From the IMG/VR virus record IMGVR_UViG_3300032306_000439, positions 1 to 64,000 of that record: a stretch of 64,000 nt of DNA; one strand, 5' to 3'. Position 1 is the first letter of the stretch; each line of letters starts with the position of its first letter. Of this stretch, positions 17,580 to 52,738 are shown in pieces. Origin of the DNA: a virus. Taxonomy: Duplodnaviria > Caudoviricetes. A program made the position numbers and the translations under genes. The notes under the pieces were generated by a model. That model ran no database searches. It worked only from the letters and a program-made list of their open reading frames with translations, and was not told where the DNA came from.

Positions 17580-17580
17580 G

Positions 17581-17868
17581 TCACCCTCTTTGCGCCAAGC
17601 TATTAGCCAAGAAGTGGGACCCGGCTCCGCCAAGCGCGGACATCATGAGTTTGTTTTTACCGCCGAATCTCCATCCTAGACTGGCTCCAGTGCCAGTTAG
17701 AGCTCCTCGGAGAATTGGGGTGACCTGGTTGCCATCAAACTGGTCGTCTAGGATGTTAGAGTAGGCAGAGTCCATCATGGCACCTAGCATGGGGGCCCTC
17801 CAGAACGCTTCTTTAGTGAGGTCCTCTATAGCTTTAGAGGCTCCTAGCCTGTAGGCCACGTCTAACAT
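17581..17868 (-). CDS. Small Gly-rich virion protein (AYxxG leader family)
   Basis: MLDVAYRLG...KEAF N-terminus paralogous to the next genes. Confidence 0.7.
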   Translation of the reverse strand: MLDVAYRLGASKAIEDLTKEAFWRAPMLGAMMDSAYSNILDDQFDGNQVTPILRGALTGTGASLGWRFGGKNKLMMSALGGAGSHFLANSLAQRG

Positions 17869-19387: not shown

Positions 19388-22300
19388 TTAGGCCTTGGGA
19401 CCCGACTTGGCAAGTCTTACCTTCTCTCCGAGACCCACCTGGCCCTTCTCGTAGGCCGACAAAGCTTCGTTAACGTCCTTAAAGTCCTTGGTTTTCCCGT
19501 CTTTCTTACCGGCCTTAGAGGCCAGATAAACTCCTACGATTGCTTCATGGCCCGGGAACACCTGTAGTGAGTCCTGAGTCCTCTCGCCCATCAGGTTTTT
19601 TGACACCAACATGTTACGAGCGTCCTTTACGGCGTCCGCAGACGCGGGTACGTGTAGCTGCAGGGCGTCTCCGTCGTAGTCCAAGTTCATTCCCTCCTCG
19701 ATAAAGGGGTTCACCTTTACAGTTTTGCCGGGTATCAGCTTGGGGAATGCGGCCACGATGTTGTACTTGTGCAGCGAAGGGGCTCTATTTAGGAGTATTG
19801 GCCTCTCAGCAGTCTCAGCCAGCAGGGCTGTTCTAGCGGTTGGGTGCTTCTCTTCTATCATCTGCTTGGCCCTGACAGCCGGCTGCCCCGCTTTTACGAG
19901 CCTCTTCATTACGAAAGGCTTGTATGTGGACCAAGCCATGTCCTCTGGTATGCCGACCTCGTCCAGACCTAGGCTAGGATCGGGCGCTGCAGTGCCTCTG
20001 GCGGATAGATCAAGCCTGTTAGCAATGACCTTGCCGTTGAAAAATCCTGTCTTGGTGCCGACTACAGTGGTCAGAAGGCCCTTTTTACCAGTCTCGGCCG
20101 CCTTAGTGGACACCGGGTCGTTCATTCCTATGACTGCTCCGACTGCCTGAGACATGTGCTTGCGCAGATCAGCCACGTCCTCGTCAGGCATGTCCAGGTC
20201 TCTGGCCTCTTTTAACTTGTCTCGGGCTATTATGGCGTCCTTATACAGGTGATTTACGTCTGCTACCAGCATATCTCCCCTAGGTCCAGGCACTACAGGC
20301 CTGAACTGAGGGGGTAGAACAGGCAATTTTGACAGTGTCCACGCCTTATCAGGGGTCAAACCCTGCTTATCTAGGGCTTCTAGCGACTTTATCTGCTTTA
20401 CTACGTTGTCTTGCGCCGCTCCAGCAGGCATCTTATCCACCTGACGGCGCAAATCCTTAGCCATTTTGCCCGGATCTATGTCAGACAGCAGCCTTTTTAT
20501 GTGTGCTCCGCCCTTTTCAGCCTGCAATTCCTCTAATTTATTGCCTGTCATACCCAAAACGCGCTTAACGCTGTCCTGGAATACAGGGTGTACTATTGGC
20601 TCAGGCAGGTCTATGTGAGTCCATTTAGTTCCGTTAAGGCCCCCAGTGCGAGCCTCGTCGAACAATCCGCCCTTTTCCGCCTTCAAATCCTTGGCGGTAA
20701 CCATCTTGGCGTTGTCTATTGACCCTGCGGACACCTTTTTAATCTCGTCATCGGTCAATGGAGCTAAAGAAAAGAAGTCTCCATCTCTCTTCACCTTCAT
20801 TCCAGAGGCCTGAAGCAGGCCAGTGAACTTGTCGTAGGCGAAAGAGTTCTTAGGTGCAGGGGTAGGAAGGCCTAACTGAACAGCTTTCCAGTACTCAGTG
20901 TTACGAGTTCCCTTTACTACGGCGTTCTCTTTGAGCGTATCTCGAGCGTTGTAGGCAAGAAGAGCATTGATTTCCATACGTCCGGTGCCTTTTGCACCCT
21001 CCGTACCGCCCTTCGAGGGCTGCTGGTTGATATCATAGCCCTCGTTTATGCCTCTGGCAGAGTAGTTAGTGTCGGTAGACTTGAACAGCTTGTAGGTATA
21101 CTGAGGCCCTACGAAGATATTTGGTATCTCCTTGCCAGTAACTGGGTCTACTAGGGTCTCTTTGTCCTGGACACCATGCTGCTTGAGCAGGTCTTTTACG
21201 TACTTTACGTTGTCTCTCTTGGCAAAATTGGCCACAGCTATGGGCTTGCCTGTCTTCTGGGCTACTTTACCTACCGCAGTCTCTAGAATCTGCGCGGGGT
21301 TAATACGAGACAAGACGCCAGTAGAGGTCCAAAGAACGTCCATAACCTTTCCGTCTTTGGTACGGAGCATCTCTTCGTCAGGTAGTATCTTAGAAACTAC
21401 TCCCTTACCTCCGTGCCTGTTAGACATCTTGTCGCCAATTCCCATTGGCTCTTCCGACTTAACAGTGACAGCTACTCTGCCATTCGTATTAACTACGTCT
21501 ATGACTTTACCAGGCACGTCCTTGTCCCATACAAGAGAGTCGTCGCTGAACGCCCTCCTCAGGGACTTATGGATACGGCCAAACATCTGGCTCTCAGTAC
21601 TAGGAGCTGACTTCCTAACAACTGTGGCTATAGGGTCTCCCGGATTAAGTATCATCCCTGGCTTTACTACACCGTTGTCCAGCTTCTCGTACTGGTCCTT
21701 AGTGAAGGCCCTAGGGAACTGGGCCTGGTGCTTCTTCTGATCCAAGAAAGACTCGTCGTCTATCTCAGTTATCTTCTTGTACATGTGCTTGCTAGTTAAC
21801 TTCTTAGCGGCACTCTCTGATATAACTACGGCGTCGTTAGAATTGTAACCGTGGTAAGCCACGTAGGCTACGTTAAGGTTCTTACCTAACGCTAGAGCCC
21901 CGTCCCTAGTGAAGTTAGAGTCGGCCATCTTCTGGCCCTCTTTGACCTTGTCTCCTACCTTAACGTTCAGGTAGTGCTTGAGGTAGGTCTTAGAAGCCAG
22001 GGGCAGATAAGTAGCAAAGTCAGACTTGTGTATCTCACCGTCAGATCCTTTTACATGTATCTGATCCTTGGTGATCTTTACAACCTCGCCTGCCACCTTG
22101 GCCGTAGGCAGAATCTGGGAGGAGAACTGGCTCTCGTTAGAGTTGTCTCCATCTCCTCCCCTGCCTATCTCGGATTTGACTCTGACTAGAGGGGCCTCGT
22201 TGTTCTTAAGGGGAAGGGCTTGGGTAACGTGCTTTGACCCCATGATCAACCGGTTACCCTGATCGCTGTCCATGAAGGGTATCAGGTTGGTTCCGACACT

Positions 22301-23755
22301 GTATAGAGTCTCAGGGGCTATGATCTGGTAGTTAGCCTGACCCGCCTTTACCTTGCCGACCTTACCTTTGTTAAGTACGTCTACCCTGCCCTTGTCTACG
22401 TCCTGGTTGTGGAATGCTATGACCTCTTTGTCCAGCCTCTCCACAGGAACCATCTCCACGCTGGACTTCTTTATATTCCATAGTGGAGTATAGATCTTGC
22501 CATTCTCGTCTTTGTGGGCGGTGATGGCCGCCTTAACGTCTACGCCCGCGTGCGAAGACTCGGGAGTGGCAAAGGGATCCAAGATGCCCAATTGAGACGT
22601 GTCCACGTTACGGACGTCGCCTGGAATGGCGCGCTCGCTAGCGATACCGCCCTCTCCGAAACGAGTGACAGTCATAGCTCCGGCTAGCATCTCAGCCGGA
22701 TTTATCTGCCCTGGAGTAGTAGATAGCTGAGACATTGTCATGAATGTCTGAACAGCCGGAGTTAAAGAAGAGTGCGGCAGTACCTTGCTTACGCTCACGT
22801 CATTGGCAAGGTCTAGCTTTGACTTGTACTTCTTGGTTATCTCCCTGGACTTTAGAGACAGCCTTTCCTTAACGAAGTTCTCTACTGAGTGCATCGTCTG
22901 GAATTCCAAGCTGTCTCTATTGTCCTGCTCAGCCTCTCCCTTGTGTACCTTGAGCAGCTTCTGGCTAGCTGCTAGCAGGGCAGGAGCGTTCACCCTCTCA
23001 AACGGGGTACCTAGAGTTTTCTCAGTTGTTACGGCGTTAATCTTAGACGAGTCGAACACTTCATGTATGGCCTTAACTACCTCGTCCTTGCCCTGAGCCG
23101 TTCTCTTGTACTCAGGCAGTAGCTTCTCGTAGAGCTTATTTAAGTGATTGTCTCTCTTGGCATCAAAAGCTTCCTTGTTAAGGTCAGCAAGGCTACCTCC
23201 CCATGCCTTGGAAATATCATTGTGAGGCATGCCCATTCCGCGCAACACGGAATATAGAGGAATCTTGCTGGTTCCGTACTCCATTTGCAGATGGCCCTTC
23301 TCGGGGTCCATGCTGACTCTGAAGTTGGTGCCCTTCTCTAAGTTGAAGTTGGCCTCAAGGTCCCCGTTGCCACGCACGCGGGTGTACACCCCCGGCATTG
23401 TTCGTAGCTGATGCCTTACAGAGTACTCAGTACCGTTAACCACGAACGTATTCTGACCAGTAAAGTATGGCAGGCTCAGAACCGTGTGGTTCTTCTTCTG
23501 GTCTATTACCTTGCCTGTCTTGTCCCTAATTACAACGTCAGCTTTAACCGGCTCGGCTAACGTCTTGCCAGCCAATAGTGCTTCTTTGTGGTCAGTAGTG
23601 GTGAACTCTTTTTGATCCACCCTTACGTTGGTTACCTCAAGCTCCCTGTGGTCTCCGACAATCGGAAAGATGCTCTTGACGCCGTCAACAGCTGCTTGGC
23701 GGATTAGTTCCCGGCGCTGGTCCGGGGGCATAAACAGAGGCATTATCTTTGGCAT
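19388..23755 (-). CDS. rpoB: RNA polymerase beta subunit fused to the N-terminal (catalytic) half of beta'
   Basis: Beta motifs FVVNGTEY, LIPFMDSDQGNRLIMG, GYNSNDAVVIS, GDKMSNRHGGKGVV, then beta' motifs GGLFD...HIDLP, LPVLPPQFRP, LLNRAPSLH and catalytic NLDYDGD. Confidence 0.95.
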   Translation of the reverse strand: MPKIMPLFMPPDQRRELIRQAAVDGVKSIFPIVGDHRELEVTNVRVDQKEFTTTDHKEALLAGKTLAEPVKADVVIRDKTGKVIDQKKNHTVLSLPYFTGQNTFVVNGTEYSVRHQLRTMPGVYTRVRGNGDLEANFNLEKGTNFRVSMDPEKGHLQMEYGTSKIPLYSVLRGMGMPHNDISKAWGGSLADLNKEAFDAKRDNHLNKLYEKLLPEYKRTAQGKDEVVKAIHEVFDSSKINAVTTEKTLGTPFERVNAPALLAASQKLLKVHKGEAEQDNRDSLEFQTMHSVENFVKERLSLKSREITKKYKSKLDLANDVSVSKVLPHSSLTPAVQTFMTMSQLSTTPGQINPAEMLAGAMTVTRFGEGGIASERAIPGDVRNVDTSQLGILDPFATPESSHAGVDVKAAITAHKDENGKIYTPLWNIKKSSVEMVPVERLDKEVIAFHNQDVDKGRVDVLNKGKVGKVKAGQANYQIIAPETLYSVGTNLIPFMDSDQGNRLIMGSKHVTQALPLKNNEAPLVRVKSEIGRGGDGDNSNESQFSSQILPTAKVAGEVVKITKDQIHVKGSDGEIHKSDFATYLPLASKTYLKHYLNVKVGDKVKEGQKMADSNFTRDGALALGKNLNVAYVAYHGYNSNDAVVISESAAKKLTSKHMYKKITEIDDESFLDQKKHQAQFPRAFTKDQYEKLDNGVVKPGMILNPGDPIATVVRKSAPSTESQMFGRIHKSLRRAFSDDSLVWDKDVPGKVIDVVNTNGRVAVTVKSEEPMGIGDKMSNRHGGKGVVSKILPDEEMLRTKDGKVMDVLWTSTGVLSRINPAQILETAVGKVAQKTGKPIAVANFAKRDNVKYVKDLLKQHGVQDKETLVDPVTGKEIPNIFVGPQYTYKLFKSTDTNYSARGINEGYDINQQPSKGGTEGAKGTGRMEINALLAYNARDTLKENAVVKGTRNTEYWKAVQLGLPTPAPKNSFAYDKFTGLLQASGMKVKRDGDFFSLAPLTDDEIKKVSAGSIDNAKMVTAKDLKAEKGGLFDEARTGGLNGTKWTHIDLPEPIVHPVFQDSVKRVLGMTGNKLEELQAEKGGAHIKRLLSDIDPGKMAKDLRRQVDKMPAGAAQDNVVKQIKSLEALDKQGLTPDKAWTLSKLPVLPPQFRPVVPGPRGDMLVADVNHLYKDAIIARDKLKEARDLDMPDEDVADLRKHMSQAVGAVIGMNDPVSTKAAETGKKGLLTTVVGTKTGFFNGKVIANRLDLSARGTAAPDPSLGLDEVGIPEDMAWSTYKPFVMKRLVKAGQPAVRAKQMIEEKHPTARTALLAETAERPILLNRAPSLHKYNIVAAFPKLIPGKTVKVNPFIEEGMNLDYDGDALQLHVPASADAVKDARNMLVSKNLMGERTQDSLQVFPGHEAIVGVYLASKAGKKDGKTKDFKDVNEALSAYEKGQVGLGEKVRLAKSGPKA

Positions 23756-27529: not shown

Positions 27530-29514
27530 ACCTTAGAAAGGTCTACGGGGCTGTTTTAGATGGTAAAACCGGATTTTGGATGTTTCCGGGTGCCAGACCC
27601 TTCCATACGCGTGTATTAAGGGATCTAAAACAGCTTCTTCCGGGGCTTACTATAAGCCCAGAGGCACAAGAAGTACTAGACGAGCAGGATGCCGCGTCCA
27701 CGTACATGCAGGATTGCAGCCTCGATGGCTTCGAGCCCGTGTTCAAGAACTACCAGCATCAGAACGAGGCTCTCAGCTCACTGATCTGGAACCCTAGATA
27801 CGGGCTGTTTTTAGGTCGTGGCCTTGGCAAGACCAAGATTATAATCGACCTGCTGTCCTACCTAAGGACTAAGAACCCTAACGCACGGGCGCTTATTCTA
27901 GCTCTTAGGGTAAACGTCTACACTTGGGTTGACGAGTTTGCCAAGTTCACCAACGGCTCTCTGGTATGTCTGCCCCTCAAGTCCACTGGGTCAGTGAGTT
28001 CAGTCCATAAGAACACTATGGACCAGGCCAAGAAAGACTTAGAGGAGCGAGTAGCCAAAGAGATACAGAGGAAGTACGGCACTCTTGGGCCTAATGCTAC
28101 TGAAGGAATGAAGAGGGCTAGGGAGCTGGCCTTCGATAAAGCCTTCAAGAGAGCCAAGAAGAACCTGCCGACTGCAGCCGGCCTGTCTAGACAAGACCGG
28201 TTTAAGAAGCAGCTAGAAGAAATAAACCCAGCGGCGGTGGTAGTTACTTACGAAACCGCCTCAGTGTCGCTGGACGCTCTACTCGAGTACGACTACGACA
28301 TCATCATTGCTGACGAGTCGCACAAGCTTAGGGGCCACAACAGCAAGATAACCAAGACGGCAATAGCTCTTGCTGACCGAGCAGAACGACGTGTTCTTGT
28401 GACCGGCACCGCCAACCTTGGCGACCCTTTGCATCTCTGGGGTCAGCTCAGGTTCTTGGGTAAGTTTGTTGTTCCAGACTTCTGGTCTTTCAAGAAGAGG
28501 CACGTTGTTACCTCTCCATGGAACTCCCACATAATAACTGGGTACCAGAACATCGACAAACTCAACAAGCTCGTCAGCAATCTGTCCATACAGAGAGAAG
28601 CTGAGGAGTGCTTAGACTTGCCGGACAGAGTATTCCAGAGAATAAACGTAGACCCAAACCCAGAGTTAAAAGAGGTCTACAACAATCTGGTCAAAGACAA
28701 AGAGCTGGCCTACAAGGACGTCTCAGTAAATATCCAGGATAGAATAGTTGAGCTAGGAAAGTTGGCCCAGCTATCTACGGGTTTCTTTTACCTGTCTAGG
28801 AAGAACCCGAATGTCTGCGACAACTGCAGCTTGCTGACGTTCTGCACCCAGAACGAAGTACAGCCCTACACCAAGGACTGTAAGGTAGTATCCAAAGATC
28901 CAGGCAACGATGTCTACTGGATAGGAGACTCCAGTCCGGTTATCGACGCCGTGAAAGAGCTGGTGCAGGACCATTTATCCGAGGGCAAGAAGGTAATAGT
29001 CTGGGCCAAGCACGTAGAAGTTCTGGACAGGCTGTACAGAGAGCTATCGTCTTTGTGCGACCCTGATGACTTTGTGGTCAGGTACGACAGCACTACGGAG
29101 AACCCTTCAGAAGCTGAGCGCCAGTTCAACGAGAACGAGAAGGCTAGAATCATCCTGGCCCAGATCTCGATGGGTATCGGGGTTACCTTCAAAGCACCGG
29201 TAATGGTGTACGCCGAGGTAGACTGGAGACTGGACTCCTGGCTGCAGAGCCTGGACCGTAACTTCGGCATACGAGCCAAGGGCTTCACCAAGCTTCTGGT
29301 GCAGACAGTGGCCATAAAAAATAGCCTCGCAGATTTCACCATGAAACTGTTAGAAGCTAAATATAATGTCGCTGATTTATTTCAGAGACGCCCTGACTGT
29401 GGCGGCTGCGACATGTCCTTTAACTGCTTCGGTAGCGGCATTGCCCCGTTTACACCGGGCTGCAAGTACACCTCTACTGCGGCCAAAACAACGATAAGGT
29501 CCTCCTCGATATGA
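27463..29514 (+). CDS. SNF2-family helicase
   Basis: YQHQ, GLGKT, IIADESH, VTGT, LWGQLRFL, KVIVW, QSLDR; start reassigned to MQLSARR because the earlier part overlaps the zinc-ribbon gene. Confidence 0.85.
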   Translation: MQLSARRRAGGFPVLYVKQAGLDLRKVYGAVLDGKTGFWMFPGARPFHTRVLRDLKQLLPGLTISPEAQEVLDEQDAASTYMQDCSLDGFEPVFKNYQHQNEALSSLIWNPRYGLFLGRGLGKTKIIIDLLSYLRTKNPNARALILALRVNVYTWVDEFAKFTNGSLVCLPLKSTGSVSSVHKNTMDQAKKDLEERVAKEIQRKYGTLGPNATEGMKRARELAFDKAFKRAKKNLPTAAGLSRQDRFKKQLEEINPAAVVVTYETASVSLDALLEYDYDIIIADESHKLRGHNSKITKTAIALADRAERRVLVTGTANLGDPLHLWGQLRFLGKFVVPDFWSFKKRHVVTSPWNSHIITGYQNIDKLNKLVSNLSIQREAEECLDLPDRVFQRINVDPNPELKEVYNNLVKDKELAYKDVSVNIQDRIVELGKLAQLSTGFFYLSRKNPNVCDNCSLLTFCTQNEVQPYTKDCKVVSKDPGNDVYWIGDSSPVIDAVKELVQDHLSEGKKVIVWAKHVEVLDRLYRELSSLCDPDDFVVRYDSTTENPSEAERQFNENEKARIILAQISMGIGVTFKAPVMVYAEVDWRLDSWLQSLDRNFGIRAKGFTKLLVQTVAIKNSLADFTMKLLEAKYNVADLFQRRPDCGGCDMSFNCFGSGIAPFTPGCKYTSTAAKTTIRSSSI

Positions 29515-30056
29515 GAGTAGTGTGCCACACTGACGGCAGTGCTAGCCCTAACCCCGGACCTACTAGAATCGGAGTTCTGATAGAAGACTCCAATGGCGAG
29601 CCTCTGATGGCCATCTCGGACAGCACTGGGATTGGCACATCCAACACGGCCGAGTACAAGGCGATCTTAAGAGCTCTTCAGGAATCTAAAAAGCTGGGGG
29701 CTACCAAGGTCACGCTTTACACGGACTCCCAGTTGTGCGAGAGACAGCTGAACGGAATCTACTCGGTGTCAGGTCAGCTCCGAGAGCTGCACGAGAAAGT
29801 ACTCGAAGAGGCCAAGGCCTTCGAGGTTGCTCGGTTCCGATGGATTGCAAGAACCGAGGGCAAGCAGCCCCTGGTAGACACGCTAGCCGAAGGTGGTCGA
29901 AAGGCCTTCGAGATTCTAAGGAGTATAAATGATAGGCCTAGAGCTGACGGAGCGAGAAGAGAAGCAGACCCAGGCACAGAGCCAGACGACGAATCTGGAG
30001 CTGCCGGGGGGCTATTTGAGCAACAGTCGGATCCAGATGTACCAGGCTTGCCCTGA
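29511..30056 (+). CDS. rnhA: Ribonuclease HI
   Basis: HTDGSASPNPG, TSNTAEYKA, YTDSQL, WIAR...VDTLA motifs. Confidence 0.9.
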   Translation: MRVVCHTDGSASPNPGPTRIGVLIEDSNGEPLMAISDSTGIGTSNTAEYKAILRALQESKKLGATKVTLYTDSQLCERQLNGIYSVSGQLRELHEKVLEEAKAFEVARFRWIARTEGKQPLVDTLAEGGRKAFEILRSINDRPRADGARREADPGTEPDDESGAAGGLFEQQSDPDVPGLP

Positions 30057-41209: not shown

Positions 41210-41217
41210 GTAAGCAC

Positions 41218-41740
41218 GCTGACATTTAGCAGATGAACTAATTAGTTCAGAAGCAGTTACTGCTTCAGAGTAACGAACACCCCTAGCCGTCCTTCGGACG
41301 CCTAGGAGGTGAGCAACTTCTTCCACGAGACCGCCAGGCAGAGAAATTCGTGCTAGTCAGCAAACAAGAGTCGAATGCGGAGAAACTCCGCAGTGGTACT
41401 TTCGGCGCTACGCGCCGTAGCAACAAGCCCGTCCGCCGGAGGAGCTCGGACATGGGAAAATACGTGACTAGCTAGCATATAAGTTTAGGCTGGCGATACG
41501 CCAGCAACGTTATTGACTGACCGGGCTGCGCCCGTTCAGCCTCGAGATGACCAGGACATCCGGTCAAATATAAATTCGTAGCTAGTAGTTAGTGAAGACA
41601 GCAGATAAAAGTTAAAGGGCAAGCTACTTGCTCTACGTACTTAACTACTCAGCAGGCCCTCGGGCCTTCGGCCCTCGGCTGAGTAGAATTAGGCGCTCAC
41701 CAATCATCAGCTAATGTGGAATAAAATTCGTGCTGTCACT
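41218..41740 (+). ncRNA. Array of four tandem structured units (110-150 nt), retron msr-msd-like
   Basis: AAAT(T/A)CGT at 41344, 41458, 41572, 41724; closing inverted repeats; 7-bp/3-nt hairpins at 41250, 41376, 41489, 41617; no credible ORF. The repeat structure is observed; ncRNA status and strand are inferred. Confidence 0.65.
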
Positions 41741-43325
41741 TACCGTAGAACGTCAGGTTGTTAGACTTTATCCTACCAGCTATCCAAGCAAAGACTTGGG
41801 CATGTAGGGCATCGTCTGGGCAAGAGGGTTCATGCCTCCACACTCTCTTTCCCATGGCAGTTACTTCTTCGTAGACGTTCATAACGTCGTCGAAGGCAGG
41901 CATGGATATCTTCTGGGTTGGATACTCCATCTGGCCATGCTTAACCTCCATGAGGAAGTTGTCTATCATGGTGGTTCTGTCAACTAAATAACGGTCCCGA
42001 CCATTCCATCTAAACGGAGGAGCGTCTCCCTCGGAAGACCCGTACTGCACGGCCCACACTCGGTTGTCGCCGTAAAGCTGGCGTAGCTGAGCGTTTGCCA
42101 TGTGACCCTCTCCAGCATCGCAGACTATGAGAGATACTGAGTGCAAGGCCATCACTCGGGCTATCTCCTTGACCGTTACGATTGGGTTCTCTTGCTGGAA
42201 TATTCGGTACCACAAGCATCTATACCTACCCCCAGCATTGACACCCCAGATCCAAGCGGCTGTTCTGCTGTGCCCTGACGTACCACCTCCTGACCAGTCA
42301 ACTCCTCCAACAACATGAACAGAGGAGTGCTTAATGGCCCCAGAAGGCTTCTCGTCAAAGGAGTAGTCAGCGCAGGATGACAACAGCTCGTCTAGTGCTA
42401 TAAACCTAGCGCCTACAGAGTCAGAGATGCCGAGAACCTCGTTCTTAAACTGCGAGTCTCCGTACTTCTCTAGCTTGGTTCTTATTCTTCCCCAGCGCTC
42501 TGGATTGTCATTGTTCTGGGGTAAGATAATCTGTGGGATATGGAATGACTTGATACGCTGATTTGCTGGGTCAGCGGGGTCAAGGTTCTCGGGTATAGGG
42601 TTCATGTCCACCCATACTCCGTTACGTGGATCCACATTCTTTTTACACTTCAGGCATACAGGTCCAGTGTTGCCTATGCCTGCATCAGAAATGTAAAAAG
42701 AATAGGAGTTACATCCAGAGCATTTGATGCACCACTCTCCCTGAGTAGACTGTCTCCAAAGAAACTCTATGGTGTTCTCCATGGTCTTTGGGGTGCCAGT
42801 GTAGGACATAAATCCGTAAGGAGAGTTAGCTGAGCATTCGGCAATGACAGGAATGACTTCGTCGTATAGAATGTCCTGTATCTCGTCGAAGTTAATCCTG
42901 TCTGCCGTATAGCCGCGAGCTCTGTCAGGATTGTCAGAGGCGTAGCTGAAGATAAGCTCAGAGCCATTCTTCAGGATCTTCAAGAATACGTTGTCCGGGG
43001 CTGACGGAGACAAGAAGTTGTCTCTGATCAACGGACTGTGCTGAATCATCTTAGCTATTCTCGTATTGGAGAAAGCGCTGGTCTGCTTCAGGGTCGGAGA
43101 TATGTACATGGTCTTGAAGAAAGGAGTTGAAACAACATCTGCTAGGGTAAAGGCCGCAGCAGATATAGACTTTCCGACCTGACGACCGCACTTCAGTAAG
43201 GTGTTCTTCCACATGCCCCTGTAGTAAGCATCGTACATAGGGTAGTCGTGTAGGGAGAACTGGTTTCCGTCAAGAAATAGGACGCTCTCAGCGAGCGAGC
43301 GTCTGTCTGTAGAGATCAGGGTCAT
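41736..43325 (-). CDS. terL: Terminase large subunit
   Basis: KCGRQVGKS, INFDEIQD, TGTPK, CxxC ribbon, GGVDWSGG, PDDALHA; start reassigned to MTLIST. Confidence 0.9.
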   Translation of the reverse strand: MTLISTDRRSLAESVLFLDGNQFSLHDYPMYDAYYRGMWKNTLLKCGRQVGKSISAAAFTLADVVSTPFFKTMYISPTLKQTSAFSNTRIAKMIQHSPLIRDNFLSPSAPDNVFLKILKNGSELIFSYASDNPDRARGYTADRINFDEIQDILYDEVIPVIAECSANSPYGFMSYTGTPKTMENTIEFLWRQSTQGEWCIKCSGCNSYSFYISDAGIGNTGPVCLKCKKNVDPRNGVWVDMNPIPENLDPADPANQRIKSFHIPQIILPQNNDNPERWGRIRTKLEKYGDSQFKNEVLGISDSVGARFIALDELLSSCADYSFDEKPSGAIKHSSVHVVGGVDWSGGGTSGHSRTAAWIWGVNAGGRYRCLWYRIFQQENPIVTVKEIARVMALHSVSLIVCDAGEGHMANAQLRQLYGDNRVWAVQYGSSEGDAPPFRWNGRDRYLVDRTTMIDNFLMEVKHGQMEYPTQKISMPAFDDVMNVYEEVTAMGKRVWRHEPSCPDDALHAQVFAWIAGRIKSNNLTFYGK

Positions 43326-43448
43326 ATGAGATCCGGATGTTTGTGGCTGAGTATTCTTTTCATAATCATAGGCGTGGCTTTTCCAAAAGTTACGGCTGTG
43401 ATTCTTGCCGGCGCATGGTACACCGTCATGCGCCTTTTGGGGTAGATA

Positions 43449-44621
43449 ATGTCTGAGAAGTTTTGGGAAGAGATCGGCGTGCCCTTGAGCAGCATCGGCC
43501 AGGCCCGGAAGATCGTGGAGCTGGCGTTCGCCAGCGGCACGGTCCCCTGCTTGGTCGGCCACGCCGGCATCGGCAAGACCGAGACCTACAAGCAGATCGC
43601 CCGCGACCGGGGCTGGGGCTACGTGGCGCTCTACGCCCAGTTGTCCATGCCCGAGGACATCGCGGGCCTGCCCTTCCGAGCGGAGGACGGCAAGTCGTAC
43701 GACTGCCTCATCGACAAGAGACTGCGGGAGAAGGTCGAGGCCAACCCGCAGGGCGGCATCCTGGTCTTCGAGGAGGTGAACCGCGCCTCCCGTGACACGG
43801 CCAGCGCCGTCTTCGCCTTCATGGACAACCGTGGAGCCGGCTCGTGGCGCCTGCCGGACACCTGGCACATCGCCATCGCGCAGAACCCTGCCGGTGGCGA
43901 ATATGCGGTCAACGACCTCAACTCCGATCACGCCTTCAGGCGGCGTGTGACCTGGGTTGCGGTGCGTGAGGACGCCCGTGGCTGGATCGAGTACGGCGAG
44001 AAAACGGGCTTCGATAGCCGTGTGATCGAGTACGTCAAGGCCCACCCGGCCATGCTGCTCGACGCCACCACACGCACCTCCGGAAAGACCTACGCCAATC
44101 CGGCGGCGTGGGAGAAGGTGTCGAAGACCCTCACGGCTATGAAGTCCCTGGGGATCAACGACCTTGAGCTGGCTCGGGCCAAGCTCAGCGGCGACATTGG
44201 CGAGGTTGCTGCGGACGGCTTCATCGAGTACGTCAAGAACAGCGACAGCGTGATGTCCCCGCAGGAGGTCCTGTCCTACTACGCGGACAAGAACTCCGAC
44301 ATTCGTCGGAGGGTCAAGGGGAAGATCAGCGAAGGCGCACTCGACAGGGTCAGCGCCCTGGCGTCCAGCGTTGTGCAGGAGCTTGTCCGTGGCAAGCCGG
44401 AGGCGTGCAAGGAGCTGGCCGCCAACATTGGCGAGTTCCTTCTCGACTTGCCGAAGGAGCTTACGGCAGCATTCTTCAGCGAGATGTCCTCGAGCAAGAC
44501 GCCCGAGGACGCGCCGTACTTGGCCCGTGTCAACAAGTACTGCGGTCTCAACGGCAGCTACCAGAAGGCCATCAAGGGCCTGTCGAAGTCCATCGAGGCT
44601 GTCGAGGACGAGATCAGCTGA
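43449..44621 (+). CDS. MoxR-like AAA+ ATPase
   Basis: GHAGIGKT, LVFEEVNRA, AQNP, DHAFRRR, NPAAWE. Confidence 0.88.
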   Translation: MSEKFWEEIGVPLSSIGQARKIVELAFASGTVPCLVGHAGIGKTETYKQIARDRGWGYVALYAQLSMPEDIAGLPFRAEDGKSYDCLIDKRLREKVEANPQGGILVFEEVNRASRDTASAVFAFMDNRGAGSWRLPDTWHIAIAQNPAGGEYAVNDLNSDHAFRRRVTWVAVREDARGWIEYGEKTGFDSRVIEYVKAHPAMLLDATTRTSGKTYANPAAWEKVSKTLTAMKSLGINDLELARAKLSGDIGEVAADGFIEYVKNSDSVMSPQEVLSYYADKNSDIRRRVKGKISEGALDRVSALASSVVQELVRGKPEACKELAANIGEFLLDLPKELTAAFFSEMSSSKTPEDAPYLARVNKYCGLNGSYQKAIKGLSKSIEAVEDEIS

Positions 44622-48164: not shown

Positions 48165-49571
48165 ATGAAGTCCACATTGCCAGAAATTCTGGCGTTCCTG
48201 CAGACTGGGCGCGGAGGGGGTAACCCGTTCTTCCCCACCATCATCAACGCGCTCAAGAAGATTGAGACGCCGGGGATGGGGACGGCTGGCGTTTCGGTTA
48301 CGCCCGAGGGAAAGATGGTGCTGCGGTACGACCCGCAGCTGGTCGAGGACCTGGAGTTCCGTGAGCTCCAGTTGGTGATGATTCACGAGGTTTACCACCT
48401 CGCTCTGAACCACATCCCCCGACTGATGCGACTGATCGAGGGTCATGAGGGACTGGAGCTCAAGCGCATCATGCGCGTGGCTAACATCGCCATGGACTAC
48501 GCCGTGAATTCTCTCATGGTCCAGGCCAAAGAGGCCACGGTTCAGGACTTCAAGACCCTTGGTCCTGACATGGGAGACGGTAAGCACAAGTACGCTGGCG
48601 TCTACCCCACGGATGCCGACTTGCCTCCTTTCCAGACGTTCGAGTGGTACTTCCTGCGCATCATGGAGAATCTTCCCCAGTTCGTGAAGGTGATCGGTGT
48701 TGTGGGAAAGGGGGAAGGAGAAGGGTCCGGAGGCGGCGGGTGCGGAGAGAATGAGGGAGAGAATGGTGAGGGCAGCGGAGACAAGACCCTCAGGGCCCTT
48801 GAAGACTACATCAAGAGGAACAGCCCCACGTCAAACCTTGACGACCTCGAAGAGGCCCTCAAGGAGATGACTGCCGACCAGATCTCCGACCTGGCTAACC
48901 AGGTGGAGCGAGAGGCAAAGAAGGCTGTTGGCAAGGCTGTTGAGGCTGCCAGGAAGAGCCGTGGTACCGTCCCAGGCAATCTGCAGCAGTCCGTCGACGA
49001 GCTCCTCAAGGACAAGGAGATCCCCTGGCAGCGCCTGTTGTCGGCCTGGATCAGCAACGCTCTTCGCAAGGATCGAGAGCGAAGCAAGAGGCGTCCGAAG
49101 CGCCGCTCCATGGACGACGCTCGGATGTCTGCCTACCCAGGTAAGATCGGCCACGACCAGTACACTCTGGTCTACGCCATCGACACCTCGGGCTCCATGG
49201 GAGGAGAGGAGTTGGCGGAGGTCATGTCGGAGCTCCAGAACCTGCAGAAGGCGCAGCGCGGGATCAAGATCCACGTCCTGGAGGCGGACACGGAGATCCA
49301 CCACGAGTACGAGGTTGGGTTCTCCGACAAGCCCAGCTTCGACATCCACGGTCGAGGCGGCACGGACTTCAACTGCGTGTTCCGCAGGCTGAAGGACGGT
49401 CTGAAGGCTGACGCCTTGATCTACGCTACGGACGGCTACGCCCCGATGCCTGATCTCTCCCTCCGGCTCAACATTCCGGTCATCTGGGCAATCACGAGCC
49501 GTGGTCGTAGCCCCTGCACCGACACCGACCAATATGGCCGTACCCTGCTGATCAAGGGCAAGGACCAGTGA
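48165..49571 (+). CDS. Metallopeptidase-like + VWA domain protein (MoxR partner)
   Basis: HEVYH...NIAMDYAVN; MIDAS IDTSGSM, GRGGTDF, ATDG. Confidence 0.88.
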   Translation: MKSTLPEILAFLQTGRGGGNPFFPTIINALKKIETPGMGTAGVSVTPEGKMVLRYDPQLVEDLEFRELQLVMIHEVYHLALNHIPRLMRLIEGHEGLELKRIMRVANIAMDYAVNSLMVQAKEATVQDFKTLGPDMGDGKHKYAGVYPTDADLPPFQTFEWYFLRIMENLPQFVKVIGVVGKGEGEGSGGGGCGENEGENGEGSGDKTLRALEDYIKRNSPTSNLDDLEEALKEMTADQISDLANQVEREAKKAVGKAVEAARKSRGTVPGNLQQSVDELLKDKEIPWQRLLSAWISNALRKDRERSKRRPKRRSMDDARMSAYPGKIGHDQYTLVYAIDTSGSMGGEELAEVMSELQNLQKAQRGIKIHVLEADTEIHHEYEVGFSDKPSFDIHGRGGTDFNCVFRRLKDGLKADALIYATDGYAPMPDLSLRLNIPVIWAITSRGRSPCTDTDQYGRTLLIKGKDQ

Positions 49572-50254
49572 AGGTACTCAGCCTAAAGGCGGCGTTCTCG
49601 TTCACCCGTGGCTACATCTTCGACAAGATGTACTTTGTTAAGAAAGGAGACGAGGAAGTCATCCCTAGGATGTTCAGTACATGCCTGCAGATGAGAATCT
49701 CTGGGCCGAACATGGACTCTCTTAGGGCGATGATGGTCAACGAGATTCTCAATGAGAGGGGAGAGGTAGTAGCGCAAGAGTTCAAAGTGACGAGGGATCA
49801 GGCCCCCGAGTCACTGCCCCTTGTCCAAGAGTTCAAGAAAGATCTCACGGACAGGAACATGAACGACTGGTGGTGCGTAGTACCGATCCTCCTCAGGAGT
49901 GTAGCGTCGTCCCCCGACGAAGAAGGAGAGGAGGACGAGCTGAAGACTAGGTCCCGGCTGATGTACTTGAGAAACAAGAGCTGGGATCGAGTCCGTACAT
50001 CTGAGATGCGAAGAAAGTCTCTGGGCAAGCCGGACATCCCGGACACGGCTATTCTGCATGTGGCCGGAGATCAGATCTCTCCCCCGTGCTTGGCGTGTCC
50101 TCACCTCGACAGGCACGTAGCTGGGGGATGCACTCTAGGCATGACTTCGTGCCTCACGTCCATCGGCATCGTCCATAAGAGCCAGTTCGTGAAGAACTTG
50201 GAGAAGTACGGGAAGGAGGTTGCCGGTGCCGGGATTCAAGAAGACAACCCTTAG
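49568..50254 (+). CDS. Hypothetical protein with C-terminal Cys/His cluster, upstream of RT
   Basis: 228 aa; GTGA coupling; CLACPHLDRHVAGGCTLGMTSC. Confidence 0.75.
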   Translation: MKVLSLKAAFSFTRGYIFDKMYFVKKGDEEVIPRMFSTCLQMRISGPNMDSLRAMMVNEILNERGEVVAQEFKVTRDQAPESLPLVQEFKKDLTDRNMNDWWCVVPILLRSVASSPDEEGEEDELKTRSRLMYLRNKSWDRVRTSEMRRKSLGKPDIPDTAILHVAGDQISPPCLACPHLDRHVAGGCTLGMTSCLTSIGIVHKSQFVKNLEKYGKEVAGAGIQEDNP

Positions 50255-51326
50255 CGTAATGGAGGTCGGCCAGGTACCGGACGGAATGCCACTGGCGTTT
50301 GACGACAACACGCTGGCGTTCCATATCGGCATCAAGACCCGGACCCTGTGGCTTATGGTTATGGGCTCGGGGTTGCAGGCAGGCCAGAAAGGGTCGGCCT
50401 ACCGTTTGGGTGAAATACCCAAAAGAGGCAGGGCTGGGCAGAGGGGCGAAAAGCGTAAGCTACACATACCCTCTGACCGTCTAAAGGCGGTGCAAAGAGC
50501 TCTGTGCGCCGCGTTCGTTCAGCCACTGCCGGTGGGACCACAGGTCAAGGCGTACGAGCCGGGCTCGTCCGTTGTGGGAACCGCACAGGACATGTCTGGA
50601 GGGGGCGTGCTCATCTCCATGGACCTGAAGAACTTCTTCGGGTCCATACGAATGAGCTGGGTCAGGTCCTTCTTCATGTCCAAGGGATACAACAGGCAAG
50701 TAGCGAGCCTCTTGGCTCGCCTTTGCTGTTGCCGAGATGAGGGAGTTAACTTCCTCCCGCAGGGTACTCCTGTAAGCCCCGGGCTTGCTAATCGCATTGC
50801 CCAAGACAGAGTCGACGGGGCTGTACTGGACATCTGCAAGGAGTATGGATGGTCTTACGTCCGCTATTCCGACAACGTCTACTTCAGCCACCCTGAGGTC
50901 GTACCAGTCGACAAGACTAACGAGTTCAAGGATAAGGTTGCGGCAGCGTTCAGGAGGGGCGGCTGGGCGACACACAAGATCCTAGTGTTGCCCAAGTGGC
51001 GCAGGCAAAAGGTCCTGGGCCTGACTGTGAACGACAAGCCCAACGTTCAGAGGGAGCAGTACGCAGCGCTTCGGGCGCTGATACACAACTGCATGGTGGA
51101 GGGCTTTGAGTCTCAGGTGGAGATGTCTAAAGCCAAGATCAACCCGAGTATAAATTGCGCTGAAGACTTGATAGCGCACATCCGTGGCAAGCTCAGCTAC
51201 TTCGGTCAAGTGCTGGAGGCTAGCCGTCAAGAAAGGCTGTCCCAGGAGTTTGAGACAGCCTTGGAAACTGAAAGGCTCTCCCTTAGACAGAAATGGGAAG
51301 AGCAGGACAAGGAGGACTCCCTTTGA
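50226..51326 (+). CDS. Retron-type reverse transcriptase with atypical YSDN motif
   Basis: IPKR...RKLHIPSDRLKAVQR, AYEPG, MDLKNFFGSI, LPQGTPVSPGLAN, YVRYSDNVYFS, QKVLGLTVNDKPNV; GTG start 6 nt after GGAGG. Confidence 0.9.
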   Translation: MPGFKKTTLSVMEVGQVPDGMPLAFDDNTLAFHIGIKTRTLWLMVMGSGLQAGQKGSAYRLGEIPKRGRAGQRGEKRKLHIPSDRLKAVQRALCAAFVQPLPVGPQVKAYEPGSSVVGTAQDMSGGGVLISMDLKNFFGSIRMSWVRSFFMSKGYNRQVASLLARLCCCRDEGVNFLPQGTPVSPGLANRIAQDRVDGAVLDICKEYGWSYVRYSDNVYFSHPEVVPVDKTNEFKDKVAAAFRRGGWATHKILVLPKWRRQKVLGLTVNDKPNVQREQYAALRALIHNCMVEGFESQVEMSKAKINPSINCAEDLIAHIRGKLSYFGQVLEASRQERLSQEFETALETERLSLRQKWEEQDKEDSL

Positions 51327-52738
51327 TGAGGGCGGTATTAGCACAGGCAATGGGCGGTATCTGGTCCCACTTTCCTAGGTGGAGGGGGAACAGCTCAACC
51401 CTGCTTCCCGGTATCCTGATTCAGATGCCGGACGAGAACATCAAGAATCACGAGCAGGTCTTTGTCTCCCTGAGGAACAAGATCGAAGCGGACCTTTTTG
51501 TAATCCACCGTTGGGCTAAGGTCTTCATGACCCCCTTTGCCATCCCAGGCCCAGGGGCGTGGCTGAAGCACAGCTACGACTACGTGGTTACTGGAGAAGG
51601 CTTGGTAACAGAGCCTCTAGCAGATGTGTATCGCAACTGCATGCAGTTCGAGAAGTTCGCTAGCCCTCCGTGTCTGTCCTGTAAGTGGGACACCTGCCTA
51701 CAAGAATCAGGCAGCCCACTGGTAGTCAAGGACATGGGTATGTCATTGACGCTAGGGTGGGGGGACAACTCTAAGTACGAGTTCGGTCCCTACGACTCGT
51801 ACAACACCTGGGTAGCAGGCGCAACAGCTAGAACAGCTCACGTACCGGTACCGAGAAGCCCGATGCAGCTGGCTGTTAGCGAGGAGGCCAGCGCCCAGAT
51901 GGTTAGCAAGTTGAAGGAAGCCATCCAGGGTACGGAAGGCCTAAGCCTCGTCCCAAACAAGTGGGCGCTGTCGGACAAGGTTGGGGTGTCGGAGAATAAG
52001 ATCTACCCAATCCAGGATATCTCGCTCGAGGAAAGTGACCTGAAGAAGCGCAAGGCTGAGCTCAGTGCTAACAGCAGTAGGGCAGCGGCCACGAGAAAGG
52101 TCCGCAAGGATGTGTGCTCCCAATGCGTCATCTCGGGTACCTGCAATAAGTACCAACCCACAAAATGCTCCGGAGCTCTGACCCTAGAAGACCTACAGGA
52201 CAGGGTCAAAGACAGGGTAAAGAAAACTTTCGGGGAGGTTCCCACAAAGGATACGCCCTGGATAAAGGCGACTCTGGCGGCGTCCGGGCATTACATAGAG
52301 GGCCGAATCGGTACACGGAAAGGCAGGGCAACCACGTATACAATCTGCGGCGTGTTCCCGACTCTGGCTATGGGGGGTCCAGGGGACCTGGTTGTCAGGC
52401 TGAGGAGGAAGCGCTATGCGCTCCATCAGTTCATCCACGTAGACCTCAAGAAAGACTGGTCAACGTGGAAGCCTGAGGAGCTCCAGAAGATCTTGGATCT
52501 GCCTCACAAGGAGATCACGGACGACCAGGCAGTCTGGCTGGCGTACCTAATGTCCCTTAGCGGATGGCGTAGACCCTATGGATCCTGGGACGAGCCGTGG
52601 AGGTTCTGGGTCAAGGATGGCAAGGTGATTATGCGCACCCACCATTATCGGCACTACGAAATAGAGAACTGGGAGGACTGCAACATTCCTGGAGTCCGGC
52701 AGTTCCGTACTAACAAAACCACATGGGGGAAGGAGTAG
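51326..52738 (+). CDS. Cys-rich hypothetical protein coupled to RT
   Basis: TGATG overlap with the RT stop, AAGGAGG RBS; CLSCKWDTC and CSQCVISGTC...C motifs. Confidence 0.75.
   Translation: MRAVLAQAMGGIWSHFPRWRGNSSTLLPGILIQMPDENIKNHEQVFVSLRNKIEADLFVIHRWAKVFMTPFAIPGPGAWLKHSYDYVVTGEGLVTEPLADVYRNCMQFEKFASPPCLSCKWDTCLQESGSPLVVKDMGMSLTLGWGDNSKYEFGPYDSYNTWVAGATARTAHVPVPRSPMQLAVSEEASAQMVSKLKEAIQGTEGLSLVPNKWALSDKVGVSENKIYPIQDISLEESDLKKRKAELSANSSRAAATRKVRKDVCSQCVISGTCNKYQPTKCSGALTLEDLQDRVKDRVKKTFGEVPTKDTPWIKATLAASGHYIEGRIGTRKGRATTYTICGVFPTLAMGGPGDLVVRLRRKRYALHQFIHVDLKKDWSTWKPEELQKILDLPHKEITDDQAVWLAYLMSLSGWRRPYGSWDEPWRFWVKDGKVIMRTHHYRHYEIENWEDCNIPGVRQFRTNKTTWGKE

What the first reader, a model, noticed from the sequence alone, without database searches (positions are those of the whole stretch)
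50226..51326. Retron-type RT with YSDN instead of YADD and no NAxxH motif
Seen: TAT TCC GAC AAC at 50865-50876 gives YSDN. The position of retron region X NAxxH reads TAQDM, and VTG reads VLG. The other motifs (DLKNFF, LPQG, GLTVNDKPNV thumb) and the reading frame are intact. Known: the second Asp is nearly invariant in RTs, but Asn there can be compatible with polymerisation (Ty1 D211N; GDN of mononegaviral RdRPs). Inference: a diverged RT clade with altered priming or catalysis, or a catalytically dead RNA-binding scaffold.
Basis: partly seen in the sequence, partly recalled or inferred. Interest (0 to 1): 0.78.

Follow-up and report, generated by a model that had tools for sequence, protein, structure and literature searches.

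The report
Phage retron reverse transcriptase with YSDN
A large uncultured phage carries a retron-type reverse transcriptase whose catalytic YxDD box reads YSDN; the change is fixed and under purifying selection across a deep clade of phage enzymes, so it is most likely a working polymerase with an unusual active site.

Summary
TAT TCC GAC AAC at 50865-50876 gives YSDN at motif C of an intact 366-aa retron-type RT (50226-51326). Region X reads TAQDM and region Y reads VLG.

It is neither a sequencing error nor a recent inactivation. Eight independent contigs carry Asn, as AAC or AAT. The nearest pair gives dN/dS 0.08. All 22 cluster representatives of a well-supported clade have Y[S/C]DN. A second set of nine DN sequences lies elsewhere in the same phage RT radiation.

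In the core DN clade every other catalytic or dNTP-binding residue is kept. Four other changes go with Asn:
- the region X His becomes hydrophobic in 22 of 22;
- NxxKT becomes H-K, with a two-residue deletion;
- Leu becomes Arg after the LAN of motif B;
- Thr becomes Cys at position 170.

The gene is a syntenic core gene of roughly 100-160 kb uncultured phages. Retron-like template RNAs lie about 8.5 kb upstream, and DN-clade relatives keep them too.

Best reading (0.6): an active retron RT with an Asn-containing active site, probably slower or with an altered metal preference. No msDNA or enzyme activity has been shown.

This scan had already noted the same RT on this genome, and another agent had followed up the template array.

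The parts
50226..51326 (+). Retron-type reverse transcriptase gene, 366 aa from the GTG at 50226 (an in-frame TTG lies at 50220)
   Evidence: Open frame. Pfam RVT_1 and PADLOC retron RT profiles. Full-length profile match to the Ec86 RT, E 4e-62. AF2 model with pLDDT 93; best structural match Ec86 RT 7v9u, TM 0.81.
50865..50876 (+). Motif C, Y216-S-D218-N219 (YSDN in place of YADD)
   Evidence: Asn is encoded by AAC or AAT in 8 independent contigs. It is 100% conserved in 23 + 9 cluster representatives.
50622..50639 (+). Motif A, D135-L-K-N-F-F: first catalytic Asp and the aromatic pair at the sugar-gate position
   Evidence: D135 and F140 are invariant in all groups. The sugar-gate role is taken from general RT knowledge.
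50580..50594 (+). Region X, T121-A-Q-D-M125, in place of NAxxH (His replaced by Met)
   Evidence: The position is hydrophobic in 22 of 22 core DN-clade representatives. It is His in the basal P0066, in the second DN group and in all 25 DD relatives printed.
50790..50795 (+). N191-R192 at the end of motif B (LAN-R). Arg is specific to the DN clade; relatives have Leu
   Evidence: R 0.96 in the DN clade against L 0.75 in phage DD relatives.
50973..50978 (+). H252-K253, motif D: NxxKT shortened by two residues to H-K. His is specific to the DN clade and the Lys is kept
   Evidence: H 1.00 in the DN clade against N 0.93 in phage DD relatives. K253 is 0.96-1.00 everywhere.
51012..51020 (+). Region Y, V265-L-G267 (VLG in place of VTG)
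   Evidence: L266 and G267 are invariant in the DN and phage DD groups; Thr occurs in half of the bacterial-type outgroup.
41214..41748 (+). Array of four retron-like template RNA units between polA and the 3' end of terL. It is on the RT strand, about 8.5 kb upstream
   Evidence: Folding z-score is -4.9. Units 2 and 3 are closed by 8-bp arms followed by G, with AAAT(T)CG before the 3' arm. The triloop hairpin covaries. Model R1 hits at 41222, 41353, 41468 and 41589. Equivalent units sit at the same place in L009, L010 and L013.
49568..50254 (+). ORF228, a Cys-containing protein of unknown family. It overlaps the RT start by 29 nt
   Evidence: Homologues lie directly upstream of the RT in all six relatives examined, at 23-39% identity. 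No Pfam, PHROG, PADLOC or NCBIfam hit.
51326..52738 (+). Downstream protein of unknown family, 470 aa from the ATG at 51326 (TGATG overlap with the RT stop). The longest ORF starts at 51293
   Evidence: In L089 the next gene starts on the last base of the RT gene. Weak homologues follow the RT in relatives. No family hit and no usable Atlas hit.
48165..49571 (+). DUF2201 zincin-like plus VWA-like protein, first gene of the coupled + strand run
   Evidence: Pfam DUF2201_N 5e-21 and DUF2201 3e-14. Syntenic in relatives.
29511..30056 (+). Phage RNase H, a possible helper for trimming the RNA template
   Evidence: Pfam RVT_3 1.7e-17 and RNase_H 2.4e-10. Its link to the RT is inference only.

Best explanation
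This is a catalytically active retron-type reverse transcriptase with a naturally evolved Asp-to-Asn change at the second position of the YxDD box. It is a vertically inherited core gene of a lineage of large uncultured phages. It probably binds the retron-like RNAs encoded about 8.5 kb upstream. It would prime on the 2'-OH of the G that follows each 5' arm and copy the short template that begins at the conserved AAAT(T)C just before the 3' arm, giving small msDNA-like products.

Asn219 probably still helps to hold the catalytic metal, but with one negative charge fewer. The enzyme is therefore expected to be slower, or to prefer a different metal, than a YADD enzyme, as Ty1 D211N does. The co-fixed changes near the active site (His252 next to the motif D Lys, Arg192, and loss of the region X His) are candidate compensations.

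Shown: the motif, its conservation, purifying selection, the retron RT fold, synteny, and the structured RNAs. Inferred: activity, priming, the product, metal use, and any role for the phage.
For: Asn is not an error:
- Eight contigs from independent samples encode Asn, as AAC or AAT, with synonymous variation in the flanking codons.
- The window against L089 gives dS 0.123 and dN 0.010, so dN/dS is 0.08.
- The window RT sits in an SH-aLRT 99 clade of 22 representatives at 50% clustering, all Y[S/C]DN, plus a basal 23rd.

The active site is otherwise maintained:
- K68, R79, D135, F140, P180-Q-G182, N191, D199, Y216, D218, K253, G267 and N271 are 0.91-1.00 conserved in that clade.
- A second DN group of 9 representatives keeps the region X His and NxxK. 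So Asn is tolerated in an otherwise canonical retron RT.

It is a true retron RT:
- Full-length profile match to the Ec86 RT, E 4e-62.
- AF2 model pLDDT 93; top structural hits are Ec86 and Eco2.

Templates are retained with DN enzymes:
- Units with 8-bp arms followed by G, and AAAT(T)CG before the 3' arm, occur in the window (4), L010 (3), L013 (2), L009 (1) and L032 (2 suggested by triloop hairpins).
- The arm sequences differ but stay complementary.
- The triloop hairpin is 97% paired with 32 double-sided changes; 0 of 500 shuffles reach this.
- Model R1 gave no match at E<0.01 outside these array regions in 1.45 Mb.

The RT is better conserved than its flanking genes and tracks the core genes.

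Precedent: Ty1 RT D211N, also the second Asp of YXDD, polymerises processively in vitro. Its kpol is 223-fold lower and it prefers Mn2+ (PMC2148107).
Against:
- In retroviral RTs, mutation of any of the three Asp residues abolishes activity (as stated in PMC2148107). Ty1 D211N is dead in vivo.
- The region X His, described as the most conserved residue of NAxxH and possibly needed for initiation or catalysis (PMC7736814), is lost in the core clade.
- Conservation of the other active-site residues and of the RNA could also serve nucleotide or RNA binding without chemistry.
- The RT-RNA link rests on co-occurrence and retron-like anatomy, not on adjacency.
- I could not measure distances in the model, so the compensating role of His252 and Arg192 is conjecture.
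Confidence: 0.6

Rival explanations
1. Pseudo-enzyme. The DN-clade RT has lost polymerase chemistry. It survives as a scaffold that binds the structured RNAs, and perhaps the flanking Cys-rich proteins, for a phage function that needs no cDNA.
For: - The second Asp is close to invariant in RTs, and its mutation kills retroviral RTs (PMC2148107, introduction).
- The region X His, the most conserved residue of that retron motif (PMC7736814), is lost in 22 of 22 core-clade members.
- Motif D is remodelled by a two-residue deletion.
- Purifying selection would act on a scaffold as well.
Against: - Over divergence down to about 30-40% identity, all remaining catalytic and dNTP-binding residues stay fixed: D135, D218, K68, R79, Q181, F140 and K253. 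Pseudo-enzymes usually lose such residues.
- The RNAs keep the priming G context and a conserved template-start sequence next to the 3' arm, in both DN and DD phages.
- A second DN group carries Asn in an otherwise canonical site.
- Asn at this position supports processive synthesis in Ty1 RT (PMC2148107).
Confidence: 0.2
2. Active enzyme with changed chemistry rather than a merely slowed retron reaction. Possibilities are a different primer (not the 2'-OH of G), very short or untemplated products, or an obligate metal other than Mg2+. The loss of the region X His would mark a new initiation mode.
For: - Asn219 is co-fixed with loss of the region X His, gain of His252 and gain of Arg192.
- Region X is proposed to act in initiation or catalysis (PMC7736814).
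- Units are short in the DN clade, 117-163 nt, against 196-199 nt with long stems in two DD sister phages.
Against: - The junction anatomy (arm-G ... CG-arm) is the same in DN and DD phages.
- The FF pair at the sugar-gate position is kept.
- The unit-length contrast rests on only two DD phages.
Confidence: 0.15
3. Sequencing or assembly error, or a recent inactivating mutation in this one genome.
For: None found. Reads could not be examined.
Against: - Asn occurs in 8 independent contigs with both Asn codons, and in 32 of 122 cluster representatives.
- dN/dS is 0.08.
- The frame is intact in all of them.
Confidence: 0.01

Closest known systems
Retron-Eco1 (Ec86) reverse transcriptase, PDB 7v9u/7v9x
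   Same: - End-to-end homology: profile E 4e-62, residues 11-312 of the chain.
- Same fold: TM 0.78-0.81 normalised to the chain.
- Motif order 1-7 plus regions X and Y.
- Candidate template RNAs are closed by inverted arms, with a G after the 5' arm and CG before the 3' arm. From my memory of the Ec86 sequence, that junction looks the same.
   Different: - YSDN instead of YADD.
- TAQDM instead of NATPH.
- VLG instead of VTG.
- H-K instead of NxxKT.
- About 25% identity.
- Encoded by a large phage as a syntenic core gene.
- No recognisable retron effector next to it.
- Templates lie about 8.5 kb away, in a multi-unit array, instead of directly upstream.
Sister phage RT clades with YSDD or YADD (for example P0012-P0028; loci L005-L007, L014, L015)
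   Same: - Same gene neighbourhood: DUF2201/VWA, then a protein of about 230 aa, the RT, then a protein of 440-500 aa.
- Family-wide VLG.
- Detached retron-like RNA units several kb upstream.
   Different: - They keep Asp at the second position, the His of xAxxH, and NxxKT.
- The two units examined are longer, with long stems.
Ty1 reverse transcriptase mutant D211N (laboratory mutant)
   Same: The same substitution at the same position, the second Asp of YXDD. It shows that polymerisation is chemically possible (PMC2148107).
   Different: It is an engineered LTR-retrotransposon RT. Its kpol is 223-fold lower, it prefers Mn2+ and it is dead in vivo without suppressors. Here Asn is the natural, selected state and comes with co-fixed neighbouring changes.
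GDN and ADN motif C variants of viral RNA-dependent RNA polymerases (Mononegavirales L protein, birnavirus VP1); from my own knowledge, not checked here
   Same: A natural Asn at the second acidic position of palm motif C in active right-hand polymerases.
   Different: They are RNA polymerases of RNA viruses and are unrelated beyond the palm fold.

Membership tests
Reverse transcriptase (RVT_1 palm/fingers) | Match to the RT domain profile above the curated cut-off | tested here: met
   PF00078 scores 37 bits against a cut-off of 29.6; 38.5 bits in the genome search.
Reverse transcriptase (RVT_1 palm/fingers) | Three catalytic aspartates: motif A Asp plus YxDD | tested here: not met
   D135 and D218 are present. 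The third position is Asn219.
Retron RT | Full-length sequence and fold similarity to solved retron RTs, thumb included | tested here: met
   Ec86 RT E 4e-62; Ec67, Kva2, Ec83 and Ec78 follow. Foldseek ranks 1-17 are all retron RTs.
Retron RT | Region X NAxxH, with His the most conserved residue (PMC7736814) | tested here: not met
   It reads TAQDM. Ala is kept and His is replaced by Met. His is absent in 22 of 22 core-clade members.
Retron RT | Region Y VTG, with Gly the most conserved residue (PMC7736814) | tested here: inconclusive
   It reads VLG. Val and the most conserved Gly are kept; Thr is replaced by Leu in all phage relatives.
Retron (element) | Cognate ncRNA with terminal inverted repeats and a priming G, contiguous with the RT gene | tested here: inconclusive
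   RNAs with the right anatomy exist and covary. They lie about 8.5 kb from the RT and there is no room next to it. The pairing of this RT with these RNAs is inferred.
Retron (element) | Production of branched msDNA | not testable with these tools
   This needs expression and a nucleic-acid assay. Public reads could not be queried.
Retron (element) | Associated effector of a known retron type (I-XIII) | tested here: not met
   ORF228 and the downstream protein match no PADLOC, Pfam, PHROG or NCBIfam family. The best PADLOC RT profile, RT_XIII, is accompanied by no type XIII partner.
Named NCBIfam retron RT families (St85, Ec67, TIR-RT) | Score above the curated family cut-off | tested here: not met
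   St85 scores 147 bits against 235. TIR-RT scores 146 against 600. Ec67 scores 130 against 450.

The most novel reading that the evidence does not exclude
A deep, phage-only branch of retron RTs has rebuilt its active site around two carboxylates plus Asn. It lost the retron-specific region X His and gained a His next to the motif D Lys and an Arg after motif B. It uses this enzyme as an essential, vertically inherited core function of large virulent-type phages, not as a defence island, making several short DNAs from a detached multi-template RNA array. That would be a natural two-Asp reverse transcriptase and a phage-side use of retron chemistry.
Probability: 0.3. Interest if true: 0.82.

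Novelty: new variant of a known kind. Interest (0 to 1): 0.68.

Why it matters
The catalytic triad of aspartates is treated as defining for reverse transcriptases. YADD-to-YAAA mutants are the standard dead controls in retron work. A large natural clade that keeps YxDN under strong purifying selection would show that the second Asp is dispensable in a retron scaffold. It would also supply natural compensating changes that can be tested, bearing on metal use, rate and initiation at a 2'-OH. That matters for engineering retron RTs for genome editing.

The context matters as well. These are core genes of large uncultured aquatic phages, with no known effector and with detached template arrays. 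That points to a phage-side role for retron chemistry that has not been described in the papers I could search.

Tried and rejected
I did not pursue it. Independent assemblies were used instead.
- The genome search on the records behind L001-L007 failed because they are not held. The IMG/VR loci replaced them.
- Rfam at gathering thresholds found nothing in the window, and there are no tRNAs.
- The junction motif AAATTCGTGCTAG is not enriched window-wide as a loose pattern. Its degenerate form occurs once in the genome. It is therefore useful only in its structural context.
- A naive arm scan gives many chance hits. Only hits in non-coding stretches with the CG/G context were kept.
- MAFFT on whole units aligned poorly. 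Only the 5' parts were modelled.
- Independent origins of Asn: the ML tree needs at least 2 changes on well-supported branches. But an AU test does not reject a single DN clade (p 0.147). I do not claim convergence.
- ESM Atlas gave no usable hit for the downstream protein and could not read ORF228.
- Literature searches for YSDN/YCDN/YADN RTs and for phage-encoded retrons of this kind found nothing relevant.
- DGR and group II intron readings were rejected. The best matches are all retron RTs, and the group II profile scores only 35 bits.
Full report
**1. Observation**

The + strand frame from 50220 to 51326 is open. Codons 50865-50876, TAT TCC GAC AAC, read Y-S-D-N. The likely start is the GTG at 50226. 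It lies 7 nt after an AGGAGG, and homologues start at the equivalent MPxF. Region X reads TAQDM and region Y reads VLG. DLKNFF, LPQG and the thumb segment are intact. A profile of the family aligns end to end with the solved Ec86 RT. YSDN falls on YADD, TAQDM on NATPH and VLG on VTG.

**2. What the protein is**

- Pfam RVT_1 passes its cut-off.
- The best PADLOC profiles are retron RTs: RT_XIII at 5e-52, then RT_other and RT_outgroup.
- NCBIfam retron families match but stay far below their cut-offs, for example St85 at 147 against 235 bits.
- The family profile hits the Ec86 RT at E 4e-62, followed by Ec67, Kva2, Ec83 and Ec78. Group II, DRT and Abi RTs score much worse.
- An AlphaFold2 model from a 33-sequence alignment has mean pLDDT 93.1.
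- Its 17 best PDB matches are all retron RTs, led by Ec86 (TM 0.78-0.81 normalised to the chain).

So this is a retron-type RT by sequence and fold. It belongs to no named subfamily.

**3. Is the Asn real and selected?**

A word-indexed search found 49 relatives. In the alignment, P0001-P0011 (down to 41% identity) all read RYSDN. The next clade reads RYSDD, and further relatives read RYADD.

An exhaustive HMMER search against 1.84 billion representatives found 8,891 homologues. Among the 198 proteins then in hand, about 38 read Y[S/C/V/A]DN.

On a maximum-likelihood tree of 122 sequences:
- The window RT lies in an SH-aLRT 99 clade of 22 representatives, every one with Asn, plus a basal 23rd (P0066).
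- Nine more DN sequences are scattered in a neighbouring part of the same radiation.
- None of the 46 sequences in the other, bacterial-type half has Asn.
- Well-supported branches require at least two changes of state. An AU test does not reject a single DN clade (p 0.147). I leave the number of origins open.

At the DNA level:
- Eight contigs from independent samples encode Asn, six as AAC and two as AAT. (The listing of nine includes L003 and L009, which carry the same gene.)
- The flanking Arg, Tyr, Ser and Asp codons vary synonymously.
- The window against its 98%-identical relative L089 gives dS 0.123, dN 0.010 and dN/dS 0.08.
- More distant pairs with unsaturated dS give 0.11-0.15.

Error and recent inactivation are excluded.

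**4. State of the rest of the active site**

In the 23-member DN clade the following are 0.91-1.00 conserved, as in the DD relatives:
- the fingers Lys and Arg (K68, R79);
- the motif A Asp (D135) and the aromatic at the sugar-gate position (F140);
- P-Q-G (180-182), N191 and D199;
- Y216 and D218;
- the motif D Lys (K253);
- G267 and N271.

The functional labels for these residues come from general RT knowledge, not from a test here.

Positions that separate the DN clade from DD relatives are few and lie in or beside catalytic motifs:
- N219;
- H252 directly before K253, with a two-residue deletion that turns NxxKT into H-K;
- R192 after LAN;
- C170;
- P187.

The His of region X is replaced by a hydrophobic residue in 22 of 22 members of the core clade. 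It is retained in the basal P0066, in all nine members of the second DN group and in all 25 DD relatives printed in that alignment. This pattern suggests that Asn came first and the site was then remodelled, but the order is an inference from one basal sequence. Mestre et al. call His the most conserved residue of NAxxH and Gly the most conserved of VTG (PMC7736814). Here the first is lost and the second is kept.

**5. Genomic setting**

The window belongs to an IMG/VR virus record of 98,638 bp, estimated 61% complete. It encodes:
- a family A DNA polymerase, a DnaG-type primase protein, an SNF2 helicase and RNase H;
- a multisubunit RNA polymerase split into an unusual beta/beta'-N fusion and a beta'-C piece;
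- a GpA-type large terminase and a MoxR-type ATPase;
- a DinG/XPD-like helicase and a DUF2201/VWA protein.

The RT sits in a tightly coupled + strand run: DUF2201/VWA, ORF228, RT, a 470-aa protein, a 144-aa protein and a 441-aa protein. The genes overlap by 1 to 29 nt.

The same block, including the terminase, the ATPase and the minus-strand genes, is present in relatives on contigs of 68-161 kb. The RT is the best conserved gene of its run. Its identities across six relatives are 67, 48, 45, 39, 38 and 31%, against 39-23% for ORF228 and 27% or less for the downstream protein. This tracks the helicase, the ATPase and the VWA protein.

IMG/VR holds at least 108 related loci, many on viral contigs of 100-198 kb. 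The gene is therefore a vertically inherited core gene of a phage lineage, not a mobile defence cassette. Neither flanking protein matches any known family or retron effector.

**6. Template RNAs**

I checked it independently.

- The 540-nt spacer folds far better than shuffles (z = -4.9).
- It consists of four units on the RT strand. Units 2 and 3 are closed by an 8-bp stem, and units 1 and 4 by shorter or bulged stems.
- The 5' arm of each unit is followed by G (mostly A|GC). The 3' arm is preceded by AAAT(T)CG.
- The syntenic spacer holds 3 such units in L010, 1 in L009 and 2 in L013, all DN-clade phages. Their arms have different sequences but remain complementary.
- L032, another DN lineage, shows two triloop hairpins of the same kind about 4 kb upstream of its RT.
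- The YSDD sister phages L014 and L015 have one longer unit each.
- Each unit has a 7-bp hairpin with a triloop. Across 11 units it is 97% paired, with 32 double-sided changes and 6 of 7 pairs covarying. No shuffle in 500 reaches this, and slid controls fall to 43-53%.
- A covariance model of the 5' part found all training units by construction, plus one new unit next to the known one in L013. It gave nothing else at E below 0.01 in 1.45 Mb.

The arm-G ... CG-arm junction is what I recall for Ec86, but that comparison is from memory. These RNAs are the natural candidates for the RT's templates. Their retention beside DN enzymes argues that reverse transcription still happens. The link is inferred from co-occurrence and anatomy.

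**7. Mechanism**

The closest experimental precedent is Ty1 RT D211N, the same substitution at the same position. It polymerises processively in vitro with unchanged dNTP affinity. Its kpol is 223-fold lower and it switches preference from Mg2+ to Mn2+. The authors assign the side chain a role in binding the metal used for nucleophilic attack and in pyrophosphate handling (PMC2148107).

I therefore read the phage enzyme as an active retron RT in which Asn219 ligates or positions metal A less tightly. The phage tolerates or exploits this, because the templates are short and the product is needed only in catalytic amounts or at a particular time. His252 and Arg192 may have been recruited to restore geometry or charge.

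The dead-scaffold alternative remains possible (about 0.2). It explains poorly why every other catalytic residue and the template-start sequence remain fixed.

What the phage does with the product is unknown. Decoy or counter-defence DNA, competition with co-infecting phages, and a replication or packaging role are all open. The core-gene behaviour favours a function in the phage's own cycle, but only weakly.

**8. Novelty and score**

I found no paper describing natural YxDN retron RTs or this phage clade. The thing is a new variant of a known kind. It is interesting to RT enzymologists and retron biologists, and the activity question can be tested with simple constructs. It is not a new class of element. 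This scan had already noted the RT on this genome, and another agent followed up the array. The new content here is:
- the depth and selection of the Asn;
- the co-fixed active-site changes;
- the core-gene status of the RT;
- the presence of templates across DN-clade phages.

Noticed in passing
window 19388-23755 (-) and 15804-17633 (-): The phage encodes a multisubunit RNA polymerase. One 1455-aa ORF joins Rpb2 domain 6 (beta) to Rpb1 domains 1-2 (beta' N-terminal part). A separate 609-aa ORF carries Rpb1 domain 5.
   Followed up: partly
L014:2070-2272 and L015:2247-2446 against window 41214-41748, L010:200-602, L009:1196-1350, L013:975-1292: RNA units next to YSDD sister-clade RTs are about 197 nt with very long stems. 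Units in DN-clade phages are 117-163 nt with short stems and often form arrays. With only two DD phages, this is a lead and not a finding.
   Followed up: partly
P0026-P0028 (locus L006): YADD relatives in the same phage radiation carry an insertion of about 40 residues with several Cys pairs between region X and motif A.
   Followed up: no
window 41214-41748 and homologous units: A short conserved GTA(A)C-like motif follows the triloop hairpin in most units. The pair that closes the triloop is G-C in 10 of 11 units.
   Followed up: partly
window 41736-44045 (-) against 43449-44621 (+): The longest terL ORF (769 aa) overlaps the MoxR-type ATPase gene by about 600 nt. Relatives have terL of 529-542 aa and the PHROG match starts at residue 245. 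The true terL start is therefore probably near 43360.
   Followed up: partly
L007:1-578: The terminase of a YSDD-clade relative carries an intein with a LAGLIDADG domain.
   Followed up: no
L086 (IMG/VR contig of 39 kb), RT at 1-927: A more distant viral RT reads YADN and its motif A reads HADIKNFF. So Asn at this position also occurs outside the Y[S/C]DN groups.
   Followed up: no
L016, L018, L021, L037, about 7-8 kb upstream of their RTs: Other phage RT clades (YSDD and YADD) also have non-coding stretches with repeated GGCG-TAA-CGCC-type triloop hairpins. This suggests detached multi-unit RNA arrays are family-wide.
   Followed up: partly
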